From positions 570,001 to 602,000 of the forward strand of contig CP064992.1 of assembly GCA_016699935.1 (NCBI GenBank): a stretch of 32,000 nt of DNA, given 5' to 3'. The translations under genes were made by a program, and so were the position numbers. How positions within the stretch are numbered: position 1 is the stretch's first letter; each line of letters starts with the position of its first letter. The DNA is from Candidatus Saccharimonadota bacterium (lineage in GTDB: Bacteria > Patescibacteriota > Saccharimonadia > Saccharimonadales > UBA4665). Positions 2,942 through 23,143 of the stretch are shown one piece after another. The notes below the pieces were generated by a model. The model was not told the origin of the DNA. It saw nothing but the letters and a program-made list of their open reading frames with translations, and searched no databases.

Positions 2942-3070
2942 AGCTTACTATTTTACTCGATAGTCATAAATAGTAAACTGGGTGGTGGTGTGGGTATGGT
3001 GGGATGTAGAGGGGAGGTATTGGTGGTGGTTTGGCTGTAGTCGGTAACGTAGCTTTGTCGAGCTATTATT

Positions 3071-3287
3071 CCGACGCCTTTTGGGCGTATCTTAGCTACT
3101 CTAGACTCCTTACATTTTCCCCTCCAGTACATCGGTTTCACCTCTTTATTGCGCGGCTTCGACACCGCTATCACCGTACTGTGGTACGGCTCGTTCCGTG
3201 CTTCGAGGATAAAATGCTTTATGAGCGTGAGAGTGCGAAATTTGTGTATAGCAGAATGGTGGAGCGTGAATGTATAGTTTCTTACAC
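3071..3287. repeat. Copy B of the leader-like structured element, directly upstream (minus strand) of the PaaX-like gene.
   Basis: See copy A. On the minus strand it reads TGCTATACA (-10-like), about 95 nt, AAGAGGTGAAACCG-ATG (ATG at 3132), then the ORF MYWRGK.., which ends at 2953, 12 nt before the PaaX-like start. Confidence 0.55.
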
Positions 3288-3477
3288 GATTGGGGGAATA
3301 GAGGGGGTTTGTAACAGATATAAATAATTGACAGCAAAAGCATTATGGGTTAAAATAATCTAGTTCAGTGCACCTATATGGGTGGTTTCCGCCGTTGTAG
3401 GCGTTTTTTTAACGACTCCGGTGTTGAGACGCTACGGGCGCTTGTACATTAACAAGTCAGACTGCACCATGCACTTA

Positions 3478-3640
3478 CACCGACTGGCCTGTTTGTCGGC
3501 AGAGCCGCCAATTTTGCCAGTCTCTTTGGCTCATGCACATTTTTCGGCTGTGCTGCTCACTTCGCCGTATTTAGATACGGCTCGGTCCGCTGCTCGCCCG
3601 AGAAAATGCACCTGAGCTCAACGTGTAAGCACATGGAATA
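3478..3640. repeat. Copy C, a more diverged and more GC-rich member of the same element family.
   Basis: Keeps cggctg.gc..c, the hairpin gccgta-tttaga-tacggc followed by tcggtccg, and gagaaaatgcac. It lacks the ctccagtacatcgg block. Confidence 0.35.
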
Positions 3641-3682
3641 ACTAGATATAGGTTTTTATAAAACAAATATTTTTCAAAAAAA

Positions 3683-3737
3683 CCTAGTGTCACGATATGT
3701 GCGCGTGAACTTCATGCCTACACATCGTGATACTAGG
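3683..3737. repeat. Imperfect inverted repeat at the left edge of the high-GC island.
   Basis: CCTAGTGTCACGATATGTG, 19 nt, CACATCGTGATACTAGG. The arms pair over about 16 bp with a 2-nt bulge and one G-T pair. Confidence 0.6.
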
Positions 3738-3846
3738 ACGCAAGCCCCCAGCAATGGACCGGCAATGGGAATGGAAACCCCAGCAAACTAGTTCTCGATC
3801 CGCTCGCGCCTGCGAGTGGAAGCCAAAAACGAAAGGACCACGTCAT

Positions 3847-5346
3847 GTGGACCTTTGGAAAGAGTGGTGGCCCCGCCGCCACCCGAACCGCCCCCGGCGG
3901 CGTGGCGTCTTCGCCAGCATCGCCGTCGCCCTCGTCGCCCTCGTCGCCCTCGGCGCGCCCGCCGCCATGGCGACATACAACCCAACGGTCTCGGTGACCG
4001 TTGACGCGCCATCGAAGTGTTTCCCAGCCGGCACCGAGGAGGTGAGCTTTGGGTACACGATCACCAACGGCACGGTTCCGCAAGGAGCCAACGTGTCGCT
4101 CAAGGACACGACCAGGGGGTGGGTCATCGGACCCAACGCCTCCATTGAGGAGGTGCTGCCATCCGGCGGTACCTTCTCATCGATTGAAACCCGGCGGTGA
4201 TGAACCACTCGTACGAGTTGACGATCAAAGGGCCTCGTGGGCGGCACCGACACGGTGACCTTCACCATCCCCGGTGTCTGCCCGGTCGAGAAGACCAAGG
4301 TCACCGCGGTCGACGGGAAGTTCTCGAACCTCTGCGGTCCGGGCTACAACCTTTCGTTCGCGGAGACCCCGACCGATGGCGTGAAGTACGTCCAGACCCG
4401 GACGGGCAACACGCTCAAGGTCACGCCGGAGGTCACGGACAGCTCGAAGTACGAGCTCACCAACCCCGGCTGGTCGCAGACCAAGACCGACGACCTGGTC
4501 GCCTGCCCGGTCGAGAAGACCAAGGTCACCGCGGTCGACGGGAAGTTCTCGAACCTCTGCGGTCCGGGCTACAACCTTTCGTTCGCGGAGACCCCGACCG
4601 ATGGCGTGAAGTACGTCCAGACCCGGACGGGCAACACGCTCAAGGTCACGCCGGAGGTCACGGACAGCTCGAAGTACGAGCTCACCAACCCCGGCTGGTC
4701 GCAGACCAAGACCGACGACCTGGTCGCCTGCCCGGTCGAGAAGACCAAGGTCACCGCGGTCGACGGGAAGTTCTCGAACCTCTGCGGTCCGGGCTACAAC
4801 CTTTCGTTCGCGGAGACCCCGACCGATGGCGTGAAGTACGTCCAGACCCGGACGGGCAACACGCTCAAGGTCACGCCGGAGGTCACGGACAGCTCGAAGT
4901 ACGAGCTCACCAACCCCCCTGGTCGCAGACCAAGACCGACGACCTGGTCGCCTGCCCGGTCGAGAAGACCAAGGTCACCGCGGTCGACGGGAAGTTCTCG
5001 AACCTCTGCGGTCCGGGCTACAACCTTTCGTTCGCGGAGACCCCGACCGATGGCGTGAAGTACGTCCAGACCCGGACGGGCAACACGCTCAAGGTCACGC
5101 CGGAGGTCACGGACAGCTCGAAGTACGAGCTCACCAACCCCGGCTGGTCGCAGACCAAGACCGACGACCTGGTCGCCTGCCCGGTCGGCACCCAGAAGGG
5201 GCCGGACAGCGACGACGCCGTGTCGTTCGAAAGAACATCACCCCGCAGGGTGGCTGCTGATTGGCTTCGGTGGCGCGGCGTTGTTCGTCATTGTTCTCCT
5301 CTCCGCCTTCGCGGGTCGGCGGAACGGTGCCCGGTCTCGGTCGTAA
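3847..5346 (+). CDS. High-GC secreted repeat surface protein of actinobacterial style, with three or more frame breaks as assembled.
   Basis: GTG start at 3847 after GAAAGGA. Signal peptide ..RPRRRGVFASIAVALVALVALGAPAAMA|TYNP. Four identical 75-aa repeats. C-terminal GWLLIGFGGAALFVIVLLSAFAGRRNGARSRS* ends at 5346. GC3 is nearly saturated. Frame breaks near 4200-4237, 4914-4919 and about 5220. Confidence 0.6.
4281..5179 (+). repeat. Four tandem 225-bp repeats, identical except for a net 1-nt deletion in copy 3; a truncated fifth unit starts at 5180.
   Basis: Unit starts (cccggtcgagaagacc) at 4281, 4506, 4731 and 4955. Copy 3 reads caacccccctgg where the others read caaccccggctgg. Confidence 0.95.
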
Positions 5347-5359
5347 GACCGGACTGTGG

Positions 5360-5716
5360 GTGCGAGTGGTCTTCGGACTTATCGCACTCGCGCTGATGGT
5401 GCGCGGCTTCGGGCTTCGGGAGGATGTACTTCTCCCAGAGGACCCGGAGCCGAGCCCATCGGCAACGGCGCCGTCGGTGACGAGCAACGCAGCTACGGCT
5501 TCGCCGAGCTCGTCACCGACAGTCGTCGGACCGACCGCCACGTCGGTACCGACAATGACCGCACCTTCGCTCCCCGCTGTGGGTGAGTCGATGCCGGTCA
5601 AAATTGTCATCGACACCGTCGATGACAAAACCGCTATCCACATCGAGCGGAGATCGCAAAGGTGCCCGTCCGGCCAGTTCTGGTCGACGGTCGCTGGCGT
5701 GTTCGTCCGCCCGTAG
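5360..5716 (+). CDS. High-GC membrane-anchored protein with a Pro/Ser/Thr-rich linker; function unknown and possibly truncated.
   Basis: TM segment VVFGLIALALMVRGFGL, then PEDPEPSPSATAPSVTSNAATASPSSSPTVVGPTATSVPTMTAPSLP, then PVKIVIDTVDDKTAIHIE. The GTG start at 5360 is tentative. Confidence 0.3.
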   Translation: MRVVFGLIALALMVRGFGLREDVLLPEDPEPSPSATAPSVTSNAATASPSSSPTVVGPTATSVPTMTAPSLPAVGESMPVKIVIDTVDDKTAIHIERRSQRCPSGQFWSTVAGVFVRP

Positions 5717-5722
5717 ATAGTG

Positions 5723-5756
5723 CTGAGGCGCTTCGGCAGGTGTACCTGCGCCTCAG
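5723..5756 (+). terminator. GC-rich hairpin after the island's last ORF; no U-tract.
   Basis: CTGAGGCGC, 16 nt, GCGCCTCAG; a 9-bp perfect stem 7 nt after the stop at 5716. Confidence 0.4.
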
Positions 5757-5782
5757 TGATGTACCAGAACTAGTTCCGGCCG

Positions 5783-6130
5783 TCATGCCGTCGAATCCTG
5801 CTCCGGCGGGAATCTACTTCGACGGACACATGTCGTGACCGTAACGGTAAGGTCTGTGATGGCGCCTTCGACCGTCTTCAGGAAACTGAAGGTCGGCCAA
5901 TCCAGGTCAAGCTTTTCCTCGAAAACGGGTTTACACTCGTTTTCGAAAAGTTTTGGTCGGACACCATTCAAAAGGCTCTCCGCGCACAGCGCCGAGTTTT
6001 ACGATGGCGTCCCAGGCGTTCTTCACCTCGTGGGCTGTAACCTACGGAAGATGGAGCCGCCTCCACCCACAATTACCTCGTCAAGGGGAAGCTTGTGGCG
6101 GTCGAGCGCTGGAGGTAGTGGACGCTAGTC
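5783..6130 (-). pseudogene. Degraded ORF of unknown family, readable only by joining three frames.
   Basis: Minus-strand pieces ..ALDRHKLPLDEVIVGGGGSIFR / VTAHEVKNAWDAIVKLGAVRGEPFE / NGVRPKLFENECKPVFEEKLDLDWPTFSFLKTVEGAITDL.. Confidence 0.3.
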
Positions 6131-6150
6131 TACGGAAGGAGGTGAGCACA

Positions 6151-6288
6151 ATGCTCCCGACGTCCACTACTCAGCCTCGGCTGGAAAACCTATCAGTTTG
6201 TTTCGCCCTCGGCGGAGCATTGCAGTCTGACAGTTTTTCCATGACTCGTAAGGGGGAATGGAGAACGAAGAACGGGAATGAAGAATGA
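6151..6288 (+). CDS. 45-aa small ORF behind a near-perfect Shine-Dalgarno sequence.
   Basis: GGAAGGAGGTGA (6134-6145), 5-nt spacer, ATG at 6151. Encodes MLPTSTTQPRLENLSVCFALGGALQSDSFSMTRKGEWRTKNGNEE*. A terminator follows at 6307-6328. Confidence 0.3.
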   Translation: MLPTSTTQPRLENLSVCFALGGALQSDSFSMTRKGEWRTKNGNEE

Positions 6289-6545
6289 AGAATGAAGAAT
6301 GAGTAGGCGCCGGAGAGGCGCTTTTTTTGGTGCCTTTAAATTAGAGATTAGAGATAAGAGATAAGAGTTAAGAGATAAGAGGGGGTGGAAGGTGGGGGTG
6401 GTTGGTGGGGGGTGGAAGGTGGGGGTTGGAAGGTGGGGGGTTGGAAGGGCGATGAGCAACTGGCAACTGGCAATGATTAAGGTATCAACAAACTAGCAAC
6501 TTCCAACTATCAACTTCCAACTATCAACTTCCAACTATCAACTTC
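6276..6545. repeat. Composite tract of heptanucleotide tandem repeats in several families.
   Basis: GAATGAA x4 (6276-6303); TTAGAGA/TAAGAGA x6 (6341-6382); G-rich GGTGGAA/GGTGGGG-type (6381-6448); GCAACTG-type x3 (6454-6474); CAACTTC/CAACTAT x7 (6497-6545). Confidence 0.9.
6307..6328 (+). terminator. Rho-independent terminator.
   Basis: GCGCC-GGAGA-GGCGC followed by TTTTTTT. Confidence 0.6.
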
Positions 6546-6551
6546 CTATGT

Positions 6552-6812
6552 CTATTTGTAGAGTTGGCTGTGGGTGCCGATGGCGACGAAGAGGAGGGTA
6601 TCGGCCGTGAAGGCGAGGAAGTGCAGGCGTAGGTCACCACCTGCGCTTATGGAGCAGTACCCCGCCCACTCGCCCTTTAGCCGGTGCAAGCGTAGGGCTG
6701 GAGCTGCCGGGTTTTCAAGATAGAGCGCTAGGGCTGCTTTGGCGCGGAGTTGCTTGGGGCGAGTAAGTTTTGCGAACTGTTTATCAAATTCTTTAGTGAA
6801 ATCTACCTGCAT
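6552..6812 (-). CDS. Type II toxin, RelE/YafQ-family mRNA interferase.
   Basis: 86 aa. Family-typical pattern ..NPAAPALRLHRLKGEWAGYCSISAGGDLRLHFLAFTADTLLFVAIGTHSQLYK. Located 6 nt downstream of the antitoxin. Confidence 0.75.
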   Translation of the reverse strand: MQVDFTKEFDKQFAKLTRPKQLRAKAALALYLENPAAPALRLHRLKGEWAGYCSISAGGDLRLHFLAFTADTLLFVAIGTHSQLYK

Positions 6813-6818
6813 ATATGA

Positions 6819-7099
6819 CTAGCTCATGAGCGAATCAAGGTGGGCGAGGGCGTCATTTTTGCTATGCGCGTGGGTAATGTTGCGGCCAAGTGCGTGGTTG
6901 GACTCTGCGCGGTGCATGACAGTTTGCAGATAGGGGTAGGCTCAAAGGTGGTGCTCAGCACGACTCGACGGTCACGCAGGGCCTGTTTGACCACAAGGTT
7001 GACGAACGCAGTCGTGGAAACGCCGAGCTCGGCTGCGAACTCTTTCAGCTCTCGCTTCGTAAGTTCATCTGTTTTGACTGTGAGTAAAGTAGTAGACAT
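6819..7099 (-). CDS. DinJ/RelB-like antitoxin.
   Basis: MSTTLLTVKTDELTKRELKEFAAELGVSTTAFVNLVVKQALRDRRVVL.. The assembled ORF ends at 6824. A 1-nt shift at the run 6933-6936 gives the tail ..YLQTVMHRAESNHALGRNITHAHSKNDALAHLDSLMS*, with its stop at 6819-6821. Confidence 0.7.
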
Positions 7100-7114
7100 A
7101 CATACATTGTATGT
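7100..7114. promoter_or_regulatory. Candidate operator palindrome of the TA operon.
   Basis: ACATACA-T-TGTATGT: 7-bp arms abutting the antitoxin start codon. Confidence 0.45.
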
Positions 7115-7146
7115 GTAACGTATGATTTTGTCAATAAGCTGTGGGG

Positions 7147-7209
7147 GCAACGATCAACGAGCAATTGATCAAGGTATCAACAAACTATCAATTAGCAACT
7201 ATCAACGAG
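7147..7209. repeat. Degenerate heptanucleotide tract of the CAACNNN family.
   Basis: caacgat caacgag caattga tcaaggt atcaaca aactatc aattagc aactatc aacgagg. Confidence 0.7.
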
Positions 7210-7331
7210 GAATGATTATCGGTTAACAACCAATTACTAGGATTCATCTGGGATGGGTGTTTAACAGAGGGCGGTTTAGTCCGGGATGCTTATTTGTTCA
7301 CATGACGCTTGTGGTTTGGTATGATAACGAT

Positions 7332-9399
7332 ATGAAAAGAAAGATCCTCCTCCAAGCATTTGCGGTAATAGCGGGATCCATAATGTGTGCGTTGTTTCTA
7401 GCAGGCGGGACAGCAAATGCTCAGGGTGGGGGTGGTATTGGCTCGGGGGTAGTGGTGGTGGAGGAGGAGCTGGGAACGGCTGGCCACACTCATCCTACGG
7501 TTGGGGTTGGAGGATATATCCCGTAAGTGGCGGCGGACCTTCACGCGGTTTTCACACCGGTAATTGGGCTAGTGTACAAGCGGCTTGCAATGGTTTTAGC
7601 ACGAGCGTAGCCATTTTTGTCATTAATGATTCAGCCGGAAGGCAGATGGGGTACGACTATCATACCGTTTACTATGGGCCACCGCGGTTTAGTGCCTATA
7701 GATATACGAGTCCTTATATTACGGTACCTGCAGCAAAGGCTGCATACGACGCACTTACCGTTAGTAAGGTTGGCTACACTTGGGGGGATAATGTTTCATG
7801 GTTCTGCTATGGACTCATACCACCCAATAATATGGCTACCTTAGACGGTTACAAGATTGAGGATACTGGGGCATGGGCTACAGCAACGAGCGCGGTTAGT
7901 GTCAGTGTTTCAGGTTCAGGATCTGATGGTAACAATCCTTTCTTCTTTACAAACAGCGCTGGCGGCGGCAACTCTATAGATATGGGAAGTGCTACGAGTA
8001 CAACGCGTACTGTATCTATCAGTGGTGTACCGCCTGGCTGGCAGCTTCTGGGGCATAGCATTTGCGAAAATGGGGCGAGTTGTACGTCCGCATGGCTAGC
8101 GAGTAATATCGTGAGTCCGGGAGTGACATCGTTTAACCATACGTTTCGTAGTGGTGCCTCGTACCATATGCGTTGGATGTTTCAACGGATTTCAGCAACG
8201 TGTACGAGCCATACATTCCCGGGTCAAATGGTTGTGGGTGGTGGGAATCAATTTACTGTTTCGATGGGGGTAACACACTGGGGTCCTCCGCTTGTCGTTG
8301 GTAATCCTGCTTTAACTGTTGAGGTGAAGGATCCAAACGGTGTCGTAACAACGAGCACTCCAGGCTACTCGGTTAGTGCCCTACATGATCCGGCCACAAT
8401 TACGAGTAATCCCATAAGTTTTAATTCAACCGTAGCCGGCAGATACGATATGCAGTGGTCACTTGTTGGCAACGGATTAAATGTACTCTGTCCTATTGGT
8501 AACAACGGTAGCTGGATCAATACGATTGACGGTTATGCCGGCTACCGTCCGTTTTTTGATGTCGTAGGCGGCGATATTTTGTCTGGCGATTCCATAAAGG
8601 CATGGAACACCGATACTGGTTCCTACATAGGCGGAGGGACACAGCTTGCCGCAATAGCAACAGGTGATATCCAGAATTTTGTGTCGGGTTTGGCCTGCCC
8701 GGAGGAGCCGCCACGCGTAGCGGGAGCAGCCTCGGTTTCGCAAACACCGGTGCTACTGGCACTACCTACGGGGAGGCTATACTGTAACGCCATTCGTACC
8801 GGAAGTGCCCGCTCAAACACACACGCTTTCGGGTGCTGTGAATCTTGGGAGTCTTGCGACTGACGGGGTTTACTATGCTAATAGCAGCATCAGTCTATCT
8901 GGTACGTTAGCGACTGGCAGGCAAGTGACAATATATGTGTCCTCCGGTAGCGTCTATATAAGTGGCTCTATTTTGTATGGGGCGTACGGTGCAAACATCG
9001 CAGATATTCCGCGTCTTACCGTGTTAGTTGAGGACGGTAACATTTCCGTAGCGAGAACCGTAAGCGAAATGCGGGTATTTTTACGCCGGTGGCAGCGGAG
9101 TGAACGGTAATTTTCAAAGCTGCGCAAGCGCAATCAACACACCCATCACCTTTACGACGGTGAATGCGTACAACTTATGTAATGCGCCCTTGACTGTATA
9201 CGGCGCGGTAAGTGCTAACAAATTAGTCTTAGGCCGGACGTATGGCACGTATCTGGCGAATGTAAATAGCGTGCCCGTGACCTATGCTGAACGGTTTTAT
9301 TACAGTCCGGAGCTGTGGTTGGCAGAAGACGGCGCTGGCACTGCTTCATCTGGTGCCAACAGATATGATTCCTTCGTCGATCTACCTCCAGTTCTATAA
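7332..9399 (+). CDS. Large secreted protein (about 690 aa) with a Gly-rich linker and a beta-rich C-terminal region, directly upstream of pilM.
   Basis: Signal peptide MKRKILLQAFAVIAGSIMCALFLAGGTANA. ORFs 7257-7526, 7385-8863, 8805-9110 and 9100-9399 join if one G is added at each of the runs 7445-7449, 8686-8688, 8770-8773 and 9073-9075. The paralog at 1-858 supports the joined reading. Confidence 0.65.
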
Positions 9400-13997: not shown

Positions 13998-14135
13998 ATT
14001 AGAACTAAGACTTTAAGAGATATGAGATAAGAAAGAGGGCGGGAAAATGAGAAGCAGAAACAGACTAGAGCAGAGCAATCAGAACACAGAGAATTCACGC
14101 TTTTCTCTAATTTTGAAGCTGAAAGGAGCCAAGTG

Positions 14136-15202
14136 ATGTCTGGTCAACCACGGATTGAAATACTTCTTGAAGAAGTCGTGAAAAAAAAGGCTTCTGACCT
14201 ACATCTTCAGGTTGGCCTACCGCCGATGCTTCGTGTGGATGGTGCGCTTGTGCCCGTTGCGGCAGCAGACATTCTTACCGAGGAAACTGTTGAAACCCTC
14301 ATTTTTGCCATTCTAGATGAAGACCAGAAACAAATATTGCTGAAAGATAAAGAATTTGACTTTAGTTTTGCTTTTGGAGATCTTGGCCGTTTTCGTGTCA
14401 ATGCGTTTCATGAGCGTGGCAATCTAGCCGCTGCCTTGCGCCTCATTCCCAATGAAATGCTGACCATTGAACAGCTCGGCCTTCCTCAGATTGTTGCAAA
14501 GTTTGCAGAGTACCCACGTGGCCTTGTTCTTGTGACTGGCCCGACTGGCTCAGGTAAATCCACTAGTCTAGCGGCACTTATCCATAAAATAAATATGGAA
14601 CAGGGTAAGCACATTATTACCATTGAAGACCCAATTGAGTATACGCACAGGAGTAAAAATCGATCATTGTGCAGCGTGAGGTTCACTACGATACATACTC
14701 ATTTAGTGCGGCGCTTCGTAGCAGTCTTCGCGAAGACCCAGATGTCGTACTCATCGGTGAGATGCGCGATCTTGAAACTATCGCCAGTGCTATTACTATC
14801 GCCGAAACAGGCCACCTCGTGTTCGCGACGCTGCATACAAATAGCGCGGCACAGAGTATCGACCGTATGGTCGATGTCTTCCCGCCTCACCAACAGCCAC
14901 AAATCCGCGCTCAACTCTCAAACATCCTTATGGCAATTTGTTCGCAGCGGCTTGTTCCGTCTATAGGTGGCGGGCGGATTGCGGCAGCCGAAATTTTGAT
15001 AGCAACACCTGCGGTGCGAAATATCATCCGAGAAGGTAAAACCCACCAGCTTGATGCGGTTATCCAGACCGGTGGAGAGTTTGGGATGCAGAGCATGGAC
15101 AAGCAACTCGTTCAGCTTATACATTCCGGTACCATCAGTTACGACGAAGCACGCAACTATGCCATAGACATCGATGAACTAGACAGGTTAATGAGGGACT
15201 AA
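14136..15202 (+). CDS. pilT: Pilus retraction ATPase PilT.
   Basis: AAAGGAG 7 nt before the [45 protein letters not shown]. Frame break at the A-run 14655-14659. Confidence 0.85.
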
Positions 15203-21243: not shown

Positions 21244-22151
21244 CTACTTGTGGTGGAATTTTTCGTGTACAGCTTTCAGGTGCGGGTCGGTGACGTGGGT
21301 GTATATCTGCGTAGTTGAGATATTACTGTGACCCAGCATGGCCTGGACAGAGCGGAGGTCGGCGCCGTTCATCAGTAAATTCGTCGCAAAACTATGCCGC
21401 ATCGTGTGGGGCTGACGTGCTTGGTAATACCAGCCAGCAAGGCATAGTGCGCAACCAGTCGCTGGATGCTCCGCGCCGTTAAGCGGTGAAAATTCCCACT
21501 ACGGTCAACCGTTTTTCGGCCGCTGTAGCGCATAAATAATGGTTTGGTGGTGTCGGTTCGCTTGTCGAGGTACTGCTGTAGCCACTCGGCAGTTTCCAAG
21601 CTGATAAAGATCGGGCGATCTTTTTGACCCTTACCGCGCACCATGAATTCTCGTCGCTTGAGGTTAATATGGTCGCGGTCGAGCCCAACTAGCTCTGATA
21701 CGCGTAATCCGGAGCTGAATAGTAGCTCTAGGATGGCACGGTCGCGCAGGCCGGCTACAGTGTTTGTATCTGGCTGGTCAAATATGCGCTGCAGCTCTTC
21801 CTCATTCAGGAAGGTTACCTGGGGTCGTTTCGTCCGGGATAGCTCTATGGTATCTGGTGCCATACACTTCATTCCGCGTTTGTGGCAGAACTTCAAGAAG
21901 CTGCGAAGAGCAATGAGGTGGTAGTTGAGGGTGCTTTTCTGTAACTCATCATGAACATTTGTTCCGAGTCGGTTGAGCCAGAGCCGCCACTTGCGCACAA
22001 GCTCTTGGTCGATATCTTCGACAGCTAAGTCGCCACCGTAATCAACGAGCCGGGTGAGGTAATGGTCATAATTGCGAATCGTTTTTTGGGAGCGGTTTTG
22101 CTCTATTTCGAGATATTCGAGAAAATCTGTCTTGGCTTTCGTAAACTGCAT
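21244..22151 (-). CDS. Tyrosine recombinase of the XerC/XerD-like family.
   Basis: The N-terminal SAM-like domain reads ..[23 protein letters not shown]... The catalytic tail [39 protein letters not shown] is restored by adding one base at the run 21408-21411. Confidence 0.8.
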
Positions 22152-22152
22152 A

Positions 22153-22208
22153 TGAATAAGTATCAAGTATCGAGTATGAAGTATCAAGTATCAAGTATCA
22201 AGTATTTC
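22153..22208. repeat. Heptanucleotide array in the divergent recombinase/ndk intergenic region.
   Basis: TGAATAA GTATCAA GTATCGA GTATGAA GTATCAA GTATCAA GTATCAA GTATTTC. Confidence 0.9.
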
Positions 22209-23068: not shown

Positions 23069-23143
23069 GTCCCGATAGTTCAACGGATAGAATAACTCCG
23101 TCCTAAGGAGCAGATGTTGGTTCGATTCCAGCTCGGGATACCA
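23069..23143 (+). tRNA. tRNA-Arg(CCT)
   Basis: Manual cloverleaf: acceptor GTCCCGA/TCGGGAT, D arm GTTC..GAAT, anticodon loop GTCCTAA, T arm GTTGG-TTCGATT-CCAGC, encoded CCA. Confidence 0.85.

What the first reader, a model, noticed from the sequence alone, without database searches (positions are those of the whole stretch)
3683..5777. A roughly 2-kb island of about 65% GC encodes an actinobacterial-style repeat surface protein inside a genome below 50% GC
Sampled lines in 3850-5750 are about 65% GC by my hand count of one 60-nt line, and the third codon position is almost always G or C. Flanking DNA is below 50%. The main ORF has an Arg-rich signal peptide (RRRGVF..APAAMA), four identical 75-aa repeats with two Cys each, and a hydrophobic C-terminus with an RR tail. 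The next ORF has a TM segment and a Pro/Ser/Thr-rich linker. The left edge carries an imperfect inverted repeat (3683-3737). The 9-mer AACTAGTTC occurs at both edges (3786-3794 and 5768-5776). If the host lineage is a Saccharibacteria-like epibiont, whose known hosts are high-GC Actinobacteria, this could be a host-derived surface protein or adhesin acquired by transfer. The alternative is a chimeric assembly join at the shared 9-mer.
Basis: partly seen in the sequence, partly recalled or inferred. Interest (0 to 1): 0.7.

Follow-up and report, generated by a model that had tools for sequence, protein, structure and literature searches.

The report
High-GC surface-protein cassette in Saccharibacteria
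A real 2-kb GC-rich island in a Saccharibacteria genome encodes a repeat surface protein plus a stub of a sortase-like gene; its only detectable relatives are equally GC-rich genes in other Saccharibacteria, not in their actinobacterial hosts.

Summary
Positions 4001-5500 are 63-66% GC against about 48% in the flanks, and codon third positions (GC3) are 0.82-0.96 GC against about 0.5 in neighbouring genes. There are four 225-nt repeats, a signal peptide, a C-terminal anchor and a strong left-edge hairpin.

The gene is not one open frame. It changes frame five times, each at or next to a short C/G run. Two native genes also carry homopolymer frameshifts, so sequencing error and real decay cannot be separated. 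The second ORF is only the N-terminal third of a sortase-like gene.

The window comes from a Candidatus Saccharibacteria MAG. The 75-aa domain has no Pfam match, no match among solved structures, and about 37 relatives among 1.84 billion representative proteins. Every relative whose contig could be read and that had flanking DNA lies in roughly 50% GC, Saccharibacteria-type DNA. Eight independent contigs carry a GC3-rich surface-protein gene, six of them with a sortase-like gene, next to tlyA and/or ychF.

A chimeric assembly is therefore unlikely, and direct transfer from an actinobacterial host is unsupported. I found no donor homolog in genomes, plasmids or phages.

The best reading is an ectopic, damaged copy of a Saccharibacteria-wide, hypervariable, compositionally anomalous surface cassette. 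Why its GC3 stays high is unexplained.

The parts
3683..3737 (+). Imperfect inverted repeat forming one long hairpin at the left edge of the island. It is preceded by an A-run, so on the minus strand it is followed by TTTTTTT.
   Evidence: dG -34.1 kcal/mol, z = -8.4 versus 200 shuffles. The right arm is conserved in L005. Its function (5' leader structure, terminator or recombination boundary) was not tested.
3738..3844 (+). Conserved 5' leader of the surface-protein gene
   Evidence: Aligns with the sequence upstream of the P0021 gene in L005, L006 and L007 (alignment A5, mean column identity 78% over the 286 aligned columns). GC of 3683-3844 is 0.55.
3845..3972 (+). Start codon and signal peptide: MWTFGKSGGPAATRTAP, a frameshift at the C5 run 3891-3895, then RRRGVFASIAVALVALVALGAPAAMA.
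   Evidence: Homologous to the N-terminus of P0021, MWSPFRGGRHATRTVPKRRGVFA.... The DNA alignment shows the window one base short at CCCCC-GG.
3973..4277 (+). N-terminal domain of the mature protein, broken by two frameshifts (about 4190-4199 and 4227-4234) with in-frame TGA TGA at 4198-4203.
   Evidence: Three-frame translation. The frame-0 stretch NHSYELTIKG plus TFTIPGVC parallels P0024's GHEYVLTVNG...TFTVPGVC by visual comparison of the sequences. GC3 is 0.82.
4278..5187 (+). Four tandem 225-nt (75-aa) repeats, each a Cys-bracketed all-beta domain. Copy 3 carries a 1-nt loss at the C6 run 4914-4919.
   Evidence: TRF gives period 225, 4.0 copies, 99% matches. Copies 1, 2 and 4 are identical. 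GC3 is 0.95-0.96. The AlphaFold model has pLDDT 92.9 and 7 strands. There is no Pfam hit and no Foldseek PDB match. The family has 37 representatives.
5188..5347 (+). C-terminal sorting and anchor region: GTQKGPDSDDAVSF, a frameshift at the C4 run 5241-5244, then PAGWLLIGFGGAALFVIVLLSAFAGRRNGARSRS and a stop.
   Evidence: It parallels the C-termini of P0021 and P0024, GPDxD(D/E)TGFP + hydrophobic stretch + RRR. There is no LPXTG motif.
5345..5641 (+). N-terminal third of a sortase-like gene (TM segment, Pro/Ser/Thr linker, first strand SMPVKIVIDTV). The catalytic part is missing.
   Evidence: A profile of the second genes of L008, L016 and L015 (A6) matches only its positions 3-98 here (E = 3e-6), and nothing else in any frame of 5200-7200. 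tblastn agrees. GC3 is 0.74.
5642..5840 (.). High-GC tail of unknown nature at the right edge (GC 0.62). It contains the second AACTAGTTC.
   Evidence: Composition. No homology found.

Best explanation
The island is real DNA of a Candidatus Saccharibacteria genome. It is an ectopic copy of a two-gene surface cassette found across this lineage: a secreted surface protein, then a membrane-tethered sortase-like enzyme. In other Saccharibacteria the cassette normally sits between tlyA and ychF, and its coding sequences are always far GC-richer at third codon positions than their neighbours.

The encoded protein has four parts (shown from sequence): an Arg-rich signal peptide, an N-terminal domain, a stalk of four DNA-identical 75-aa disulfide-bracketed beta domains, and a C-terminal hydrophobic anchor with a positive tail.

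Inferred function: it is exported and held at the cell surface. The N-terminal domain is presented on a stalk whose length changes by gain or loss of repeats, for contact with the host cell or the environment.

This copy is damaged, or at least misread. It has five frame changes, each at or next to a short C/G run, and its partner gene is cut off after about 98 residues. So it is either a decaying paralog or an error-laden assembly of a live gene with a lost partner.

The high GC points to an origin or process outside normal Saccharibacteria mutation pressure. The immediate relatives are Saccharibacteria genes, not actinobacterial ones.
For: Identity of the genome: (NCBI name) and the type IV pilus genes in the window.

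Composition.

Architecture.

Family:
- The profile search found 37 relatives, 28 of them at E <= 1e-10.
- P0021 and P0024 share the signal peptide, N-domain and C-terminal motif.
- P0021's loci L005-L007 also share the leader DNA.

Conserved locus with anomalous composition in eight independent contigs:
- L008: GC3 0.86 for the surface gene and 0.72 for the second gene, against 0.44-0.64 in neighbours.
- L011: 0.87 and 0.73.
- L002: 0.85 and 0.67.
- L009: 0.76.
- L001: 0.86. L003: 0.87.
- L015: 0.90 and 0.76.
- L016: 0.88 and 0.71.

Flanking genes are conserved: tlyA 67-73% and ychF 77-86% amino-acid identity. The surface proteins share only the 75-aa domain, and the second genes of L008, L011 and L002 show no significant pairwise BLAST similarity.

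Second gene as sortase:
- PF04203 on L011, P0040 and P0041.
- PF04203 on one of three members of the L008 type, E = 2.8e-4.
- hhalign aligns the GHT and Cys motifs.

The window's ORF2 matches only the first 98 profile positions.

Native genes in the window also have homopolymer frameshifts: the PilT-like gene at an A5 run and 7257-8863 at G5 runs.
Against: - The window copy is not at the tlyA-ychF site, and no flank synteny with that site was found. 'Ectopic copy' is therefore inferred from homology alone.
- No independent assembly of this exact locus was found, so neither the junctions nor the frameshifts could be checked.
- The C-terminus has no LPXTG motif.
- Adhesin function is inferred from architecture only.
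- The sortase assignment for the L008 and L002 types is weak: hhalign probability is 6%, and neither Pfam nor PDB sequence searches gave a hit.
- Why GC3 is high is not explained.
Confidence: 0.58

Rival explanations
1. Recent direct transfer from a high-GC actinobacterial host: the epibiont captured a host surface-protein/sortase operon.
For: GC3 of 0.95 and a strongly G/C-ending codon choice (TCG, ACC, GTC, CCG, AAG), which I know to be typical of Actinobacteria but did not compare against any reference genome. An Arg-rich signal peptide. A sortase-like partner gene. The window carries a type IV pilus cluster; such pili are linked to the host association of Saccharibacteria (established knowledge), and cultured Saccharibacteria live on Actinobacteria (established knowledge).
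Against: - No actinobacterial homolog among the 1.84 billion representatives, in the GTDB species genomes (motif-limited), or in plasmids or phages.
- The only 'Microbacteriaceae' label is on a 42-49% GC contig.
- The leader and gene are homologous to copies elsewhere (L005-L007), and the family resides at a conserved Saccharibacteria locus behind AT-rich, native-looking promoters.
- The same domain occurs in normal-GC LPXTG-type proteins.
Confidence: 0.17
2. The frame changes are real, and the island is a decaying pseudogene remnant with no present function.
For: Five frame changes in 1.5 kb, in-frame TGA TGA at 4198-4203, a truncated partner gene, and a neighbourhood of ORF-poor DNA and fragmented ORFs at 2942-3682 and 5790-6550.
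Against: All five sites are at or next to short C/G runs. Native genes (the PilT-like gene and 7257-8863) show the same kind of homopolymer frameshift, as expected from residual long-read errors. Apart from copy 3's single indel, the four repeats are still identical, and GC3 is still 0.95, which would not be expected after long neutral decay in a 48% GC genome (inference).
Confidence: 0.17
3. Assembly chimera: a fragment of a high-GC organism was joined into the Saccharibacteria contig at the shared 9-mer.
For: An abrupt composition change. AACTAGTTC occurs near both edges, 3 hits against 0.18 expected for that word.
Against: - Both flanks continue in the same genome. A 2-kb A-B-A insertion is not how chimeric joins look (inference).
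- Eight other assemblies, from five data sources and with differing contig-naming styles (k141_, k127_, NODE_, Logan, JGI), show homologous GC-rich genes embedded in Saccharibacteria-type DNA.
- The left 9-mer lies inside the conserved leader, not at its edge, and is not conserved in L005-L007.
- Short repeats of this length are common here.
Confidence: 0.03
4. Cargo of a phage, plasmid or other mobile element integrated here.
For: A hairpin at the left edge. Toxin-antitoxin genes at 6552-7150 and a PaaX/Cas2-like gene at 2381-2941 lie nearby. The P0021 protein is found unchanged in three samples on short contigs.
Against: No integrase, transposase or att-like repeat lies at the edges; the only integrase is at 21372-22187. 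No relatives in plasmid, phage or IMG/VR collections.
Confidence: 0.05

Closest known systems
Sortase-anchored Gram-positive surface proteins (LPXTG proteins with a housekeeping or dedicated sortase, Pfam PF04203 / PF00746)
   Same: A signal peptide, repeat domains, then a C-terminal hydrophobic segment and positive tail. The adjacent gene is a membrane-tethered sortase-like enzyme. Relatives P0022 and P0023 carry LPGTG and LPSTG, and the normal-GC relatives carry LPETG, LPHTG or LPRTG.
   Different: The window protein and its nearest relatives (P0021, P0024) have GPDxDD(TG) instead of LPXTG. The window's sortase-like gene lacks its catalytic part. Several cassette sortases are too divergent for Pfam.
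Variable-length 'periscope' surface proteins with DNA-identical tandem repeats, such as Rib / alpha C of Streptococcus and SasG (from my own knowledge; not tested)
   Same: Tandem repeats of about 75-80 aa that are identical at the DNA level, forming a stalk between an N-terminal domain and a wall or membrane anchor. Copy number also varies in relatives: there are two copies in P0003, P0004 and P0006, and a scaffold gap inside the repeat in L002.
   Different: No sequence or fold match to Rib, G5-E or any solved structure. The domain is bracketed by a Cys pair. Length variation within a population was not examined.
Flexible surface-antigen islands at conserved chromosomal sites (such as O-antigen or capsule loci between conserved flanking genes) and the GC-rich vls antigenic-variation locus of Borrelia (from my own knowledge)
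   Same: A hypervariable cassette between conserved housekeeping genes (tlyA, ychF), with a composition that departs from the genome and persists across lineages.
   Different: Here the deviation is upward in GC and confined to coding sequence; the intergenic spacers are 0.42-0.50 GC. No silent cassettes or recombination machinery were identified. The window copy lies outside the conserved site.

Membership tests
LPXTG sortase substrate (PF00746 / TIGR01167 type sorting signal) | An LPXTG-like pentapeptide just before the C-terminal hydrophobic segment | tested here: not met
   The window reads GTQKGPDSDDAVSF...PAGWLLIGFGG... with no LPXTG in any frame of 5188-5347. Pfam Gram_pos_anchor is not hit. 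The relative P0021 gives only E = 0.24.
LPXTG sortase substrate (PF00746 / TIGR01167 type sorting signal) | An N-terminal signal peptide, a C-terminal hydrophobic stretch and a positively charged tail | tested here: met
   RRRGVFASIAVALVALVALGAPAAMA at the N-terminus and WLLIGFGGAALFVIVLLSAFAGRRNGARSRS at the C-terminus.
Sortase (Pfam PF04203), for the second gene | A match to the sortase domain with the catalytic His and Cys (TLxTC-like) | tested here: not met
   The window's ORF2 covers only profile positions 3-98 (TM segment, linker, first strand). No His/Cys part exists in any frame of 5200-7200, and there is no Pfam hit. Full-length counterparts elsewhere do hit PF04203.
Saccharibacteria 75-aa Cys-bracketed domain family (unnamed; defined here by profiles A1/A2) | A significant profile match with the conserved C...VTAV(N/D)G.F.D.CG..FN..F...T.GV.Y....GNT..V.A.....Y.L.NP.W.Q..TD.L..C pattern | tested here: met
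   The window repeats seeded the profile. Non-self members score E = 1.9e-66 to 1e-12. Invariant G18, G25, N29, G39, Y42, D76 and L78 across 29 domains.
tlyA-ychF GC3-rich surface cassette of Saccharibacteria (defined here) | A location between tlyA (S4 + FtsJ) and ychF | tested here: not met
   The window flanks are a PaaX/Cas2-like gene (2381-2941) and a YafQ/RelB toxin-antitoxin pair (6552-7150). tblastn with tlyA, ychF and neighbouring proteins from L016, L015 and L002 found nothing in the window.
tlyA-ychF GC3-rich surface cassette of Saccharibacteria (defined here) | A surface-protein gene with the 75-aa domain, followed by a gene for a TM + PST-linker protein, with coding GC3 far above the neighbours | tested here: met
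   GC3 is 0.82-0.96 in gene 1 and 0.74 in ORF2, against 0.46-0.63 in the flanks. Gene order as in L002, L008, L011, L015 and L016.
Horizontally acquired actinobacterial gene | The closest homologs lie in Actinobacteria genomes | tested here: not met
   All relatives with readable flanks lie in roughly 50% GC Saccharibacteria-type DNA. Limits: the GTDB scan used two peptide motifs only, and not all 37 relatives could be placed.

The most novel reading that the evidence does not exclude
Saccharibacteria keep a hypervariable surface-protein/sortase cassette, at a conserved tlyA-ychF site and in ectopic copies like this one. Its coding sequences are held at GC3 0.76-0.95 in roughly 50% GC genomes, while the promoters and spacers inside the cassette stay AT-rich. 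That pattern is not what simple transfer followed by neutral amelioration predicts. It would imply an active process: repeated capture from high-GC hosts into a fixed expression site, or GC-biased gene conversion driven by intense recombination. It would also mark the cassette as a fast-evolving determinant of host attachment or host range.
Probability: 0.3. Interest if true: 0.8.

Novelty: new variant of a known kind. Interest (0 to 1): 0.55.

Why it matters
Saccharibacteria and other Patescibacteria live attached to host bacteria, and the molecules that set host contact and host range are largely unknown. This island belongs to a small, uncharacterised family of surface proteins with a confidently modelled domain that matches no Pfam family and no solved structure.

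The family is paired with divergent sortases and is hypervariable between conserved housekeeping genes. It also stands out in composition in every genome examined. That makes it an easy-to-find candidate locus for host-interaction genes.

It also raises a concrete evolutionary puzzle: how do third-position GC values of 0.76-0.95 persist in roughly 50% GC genomes when the spacers inside the cassette are AT-rich?

On the practical side, the case shows that a GC island in an epibiont genome need not be either a chimera or a fresh host gene.

Tried and rejected
- Pfam and NCBIfam gave no family for the reconstructed protein or ORF2.
- A word-indexed homolog search with the family alignment A2 returned nothing, although the family exists. 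I take this as a limit of the tool. The same search with the L011 sortase gave only three unnamed hits and no information on a donor.
- The first attempt to scan genomes with A2 failed because the alignment had no conserved stretch. A narrower alignment, A3, worked.
- The empty-site test failed. An exact look-up of the PaaX-like flank protein found nothing. The metagenome scan returned two short contigs that do not reach the island side.
- PDB sequence searches with the second-gene proteins gave nothing.
- I tested whether the window shares synteny with the region downstream of ychF (a large protein, then PilM). tblastn found nothing, so I rejected it.
- I tested whether the fragmented minus-strand ORFs at 5790-6130 are ychF remnants or another known family. 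There was no Pfam hit and no similarity.
- Rfam found nothing for the hairpin or leader.
- I rejected the 9-mer as an att-like direct repeat.
- A neighbour-joining tree of the 80-aa domains has no support values. It groups most high-GC copies together but places P0004b with the normal-GC P0009 and P0012. This is too weak to settle single versus multiple origin.
Full report
**1. The observation**

The window is about 48% GC overall. The 500-nt windows from 4001 to 5500 are 0.628-0.658 GC, the edge windows are 0.56-0.58, and nothing else in the 32 kb exceeds 0.54.

The excess is concentrated at third codon positions. In the inferred reading frames GC3 is 0.82 (3844-4197), 0.96 (4237-4917) and 0.95 (4917-5237). 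Six flanking genes give 0.46-0.63.

Tandem Repeats Finder reports one array at 4278-5187 with period 225, 4.0 copies and 99% matches. Copies 1, 2 and 4 are identical in DNA. Copy 3 differs only by CCCCGGCTGG to CCCCCCTGG, which is one base shorter.

The inverted repeat 3683-3737 folds into a single hairpin of -34.1 kcal/mol, with z = -8.4 against shuffles. AACTAGTTC is at 3786-3794 and 5768-5776.

**2.

Three-frame translation and comparison with relatives give this coding path:
- ATG 3845 in frame 2 (MWTFGKSGGPAATRTAP)
- shift at the C5 run 3891-3895 into frame 1 (RRRGVFASIAV...APAAMA, then the N-terminal domain)
- in-frame TGA TGA at 4198-4203 and a shift into frame 0 for 12 codons (NHSYELTIKGP)
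- back to frame 1 at about 4227-4234
- shift at the C6 run 4914-4919 in repeat 3
- shift at the C4 run 5241-5244 into the frame that encodes the hydrophobic C-terminus and stop (5345-5347)

Relatives support the reconstruction. P0021 begins MWSPFRGGRHATRTVPKRRGVFA, and its DNA aligns with the window with a one-base gap at CCCCC-GG. By visual comparison, P0024 has GHEYVLTVNG...TFTVPGVC where the window has NHSYELTIKG...TFTIPGVC.

All five shifts lie at or next to short C/G runs. Two native genes in the window show the same defect. A PilT-like ATPase is split at an A5 run (14133-14966 and 14669-15202 hit consecutive parts of PF00437). The 7257-8863 gene is split among G5 runs.

The contig is 1.23 Mb, which fits a long-read assembly. 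That is my inference, not a tool result. I therefore cannot tell sequencing error from real decay. My judgement, not a computed figure, is that error is somewhat more likely for the frame shifts. The truncation of the second gene (section 4) is not a homopolymer effect.

**3. Whose genome, and who else has this?**

The window's own ORF 4237-5058 is in NCBI as 'hypothetical protein IPL68_03740 [Candidatus Saccharibacteria bacterium]'. The window also carries a type IV pilus cluster: PilM, PilN, two T2SSE ATPases, a prepilin peptidase and PilX.

The reconstructed protein has no Pfam or NCBIfam family. A profile of the 75-aa unit, scored against all 1.84 billion representative proteins, found 37 proteins at E <= 1e-3 and 28 at E <= 1e-10. 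This is a small family.

I could read the encoding contigs of twelve members. Eight contigs show the same picture:

| Locus | Source | Arrangement | GC3, surface gene / second gene | Neighbour GC3 |
|---|---|---|---|---|
| L008 | 134-kb ENA contig | rpsF-ssb-rpsR-efp-tlyA, surface protein P0011, TM + PST-linker protein, ychF | 0.86 / 0.72 | 0.44-0.64 |
| L011 | NCBI GCA_964596965.1, 102 kb | tlyA, surface gene, second gene, ychF-like gene | 0.87 / 0.73 (second gene hits PF04203 Sortase) | 0.50-0.59 |
| L016 | JGI | tlyA, surface gene, second gene, ychF | 0.88 / 0.71 | 0.53-0.57 |
| L015 | NCBI, 'Candidatus Saccharimonas sp.' | surface gene, second gene, ychF | 0.90 / 0.76 | 0.44-0.52 |
| L002 | the only hit among GTDB species genomes, 'Candidatus Saccharibacteria bacterium' | surface gene, second gene, ychF | 0.85 / 0.67 | 0.44-0.48 |
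| L009 | ENA | surface gene, ychF | 0.76 / none | 0.59 |
| L001 | ENA | tlyA, surface gene | 0.86 / not on contig | 0.49 |
| L003 | Logan | tlyA, surface gene | 0.87 / not on contig | 0.51 |

Across these contigs tlyA is 67-73% and ychF 77-86% identical in protein. The surface proteins share only the 75-aa domain, in local alignments of 62-195 residues at 39-74% identity. The second genes of L008, L011 and L002 show no significant pairwise BLAST similarity.

The spacers inside the cassette are 0.42-0.50 GC. By eye they carry AT-rich TTTACA...TATAAT-like sequences. So the GC excess is confined to the coding sequences.

The domain also occurs in proteins encoded at ordinary GC. P0009 has GC3 0.50 and carries LPETG with a YFAQPKRxYE tail; its contig L010 is about 50% GC but carries no taxonomic label. 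P0012 is similar. NCBI labels it both 'Microbacteriaceae bacterium' and 'Candidatus Saccharibacteria bacterium', but its contig is 42-49% GC. I read that as a Saccharibacteria contig binned with an actinobacterium.

No relatives were found in 72,556 plasmids, 50,697 phage genomes or IMG/VR.

**4. The second ORF**

ORF2 (5345-5641) has a TM segment, a Pro/Ser/Thr linker and the stretch SMPVKIVIDTV. A profile of the second genes of L008, L016 and L015 (A6) matches only its positions 3-98 here (E = 3e-6). Nothing resembling the His/Cys part occurs in any frame of 5200-7200.

The full-length counterparts are sortase-like. PF04203 is recorded for L011, P0040 and P0041. One of three members of the L008 type hits PF04203 at E = 2.8e-4. 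hhalign places GHTW/GHTY and the Cys region in register, but with weak statistics: E = 0.006, probability 6%.

In the compact P0021-type operon the second gene overlaps the end of the first, as it does in the window. The window therefore keeps a surface-protein gene and only the stub of its partner. The 200 nt after the stub (5642-5840, GC 0.62) are unexplained.

**5. How it most likely works**

Shown from sequence:
- an N-terminal signal peptide ending in AMA
- an N-terminal domain of about 100 residues
- four identical 75-aa units
- a C-terminal hydrophobic segment with an Arg-rich tail

The unit models confidently as a seven-strand all-beta domain (pLDDT 92.9). It has a conserved Cys near each end and no Foldseek match among solved structures.

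Inferred: the protein is exported and retained at the surface, either by its own anchor or by a sortase-like enzyme acting on the GPDxDD(TG) or LPXTG-like tail seen across the family. The repeats form a stalk whose length changes by unequal recombination. Two observations support such change: the window copies are identical in DNA, and copy number varies among relatives. The N-terminal domain is the candidate binding part. An adhesin or host-contact role is plausible for an epibiont but is not shown.

**6.

The chimera alternative can be set aside (confidence 0.03). A 2-kb foreign piece with the same genome on both sides is not how chimeric joins look. The same kind of GC-rich gene is embedded in Saccharibacteria-type DNA in eight other assemblies. 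The left 9-mer lies inside a leader that is conserved in L005-L007, and the 9-mer itself is not conserved there.

What remains in its favour is the composition and the strongly G/C-ending codon usage.

Against a simple recent import are three points:
- the conserved chromosomal site
- the AT-rich, native-looking spacers between GC-rich coding sequences
- the presence of the domain in normal-GC proteins of the same kind

A neighbour-joining tree of the domains groups most high-GC copies together but puts P0004b with the normal-GC P0009 and P0012. It has no support values and cannot decide.

**7. What is unexplained**

Third-position GC of 0.76-0.95 persists in divergent cassettes at one conserved site, while spacers and neighbours are at genome composition. 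Neutral amelioration after transfer does not predict this.

The possibilities I can name are:
- repeated capture from unsampled high-GC donors into a fixed expression site
- GC-biased gene conversion in a recombination-prone locus
- selection on the coding sequence

None was testable here. I found no paper describing the pattern. The library is limited, so this is not proof of novelty.

**8. Verdict**

The surface protein and the foreign-looking composition hold. The assembly artefact is rejected. An actinobacterial host donor is not shown, and its own refutation test came out against it.
- The object is a new variant of a known kind: a sortase-type repeat surface protein cassette with an undescribed domain and a lineage-wide compositional anomaly. 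The window copy is itself damaged or misread.
- Interest is 0.55. The window copy alone is modest. The family-level pattern it led to is the part worth following.

Noticed in passing
window 3328-3660 (+): A near-consensus sigma-70-like promoter (TTGACA-17-TAAAAT, 11 of 12) is followed by about 300 nt with no credible ORF (only a 77-aa mechanical one, 3382-3615). This stretch folds much better than shuffles (z = -4.8), and its ends pair (AUCUAGUU...AACUAGAU). There is no Rfam match. It could be an unannotated small RNA just left of the island.
   Followed up: partly
window 14133-15202 (+) and 7257-8863 (+): Two native genes are split by frameshifts at homopolymers. A PilT-like T2SSE ATPase is split at an A5 run near 14655, and a secreted Gly-rich protein is split among G5 runs near 7420-7450. 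This suggests residual indel errors in the assembly and bears on whether the island's frameshifts are real.
   Followed up: partly
window 6254-6546: A chain of short tandem arrays: GAATGAA x7, AGAGATA x5.6, GGGGGTGGAAGGTG x5, AACTATCAACTTCC x4. The G-rich and C-rich arrays are partly complementary (23-nt arms, 78%). They lie between the island and the toxin-antitoxin pair. Their nature is unknown.
   Followed up: no
window 5790-6130 (-): Fragments of a minus-strand reading frame spread over three frames (for example LLNGVRPKLFENECKPVFEEKLDLDWPTFSFLKTVEGAITDL). There is no Pfam match and no similarity to ychF. This is possibly another broken gene at the right edge.
   Followed up: partly
L001, L002, L003, L008, L009, L011, L015, L016: In eight independent Saccharibacteria-type contigs, the genes next to tlyA and/or ychF are a hypervariable surface protein and, in six of them, a divergent sortase. 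Their GC3 is 0.76-0.90 (surface gene) and 0.67-0.76 (second gene), against about 0.44-0.64 in neighbours. The spacers inside the cassette are 0.42-0.50 GC.
   Followed up: yes
L014 (NCBI GCA_014378905.1, JACMMU010000039.1): A protein labelled 'Microbacteriaceae bacterium' in NCBI (MBC7764438.1, P0012) sits on a 42-49% GC contig and has an LPETG/YFAQ-type tail like other normal-GC family members. This is probably an epibiont contig binned with its actinobacterial host.
   Followed up: partly
L008 12049-16564: Directly after ychF lies a block with a large serine recombinase, a resolvase, an AAA_25 protein and an HTH regulator at 0.40-0.47 GC. This is a possible integrated mobile element next to the cassette site.
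   Followed up: no
window 3360-3788, 5770 and 6493: CTAG is under-represented in the window (64 sites against about 124 expected from base composition), yet five sites cluster in 3360-3788. AACTAG-containing words recur at 3640, 3786, 5768 and 6491. No function is evident.
   Followed up: partly
window 21372-22187 (-) and 23069-23143 (+): A tyrosine recombinase (Phage_integrase plus SAM-like N-terminal domain) lies about 0.9 kb from tRNA-Arg(CCT), downstream of the type IV pilus cluster. It is far from the island and shows no GC anomaly.
   Followed up: no
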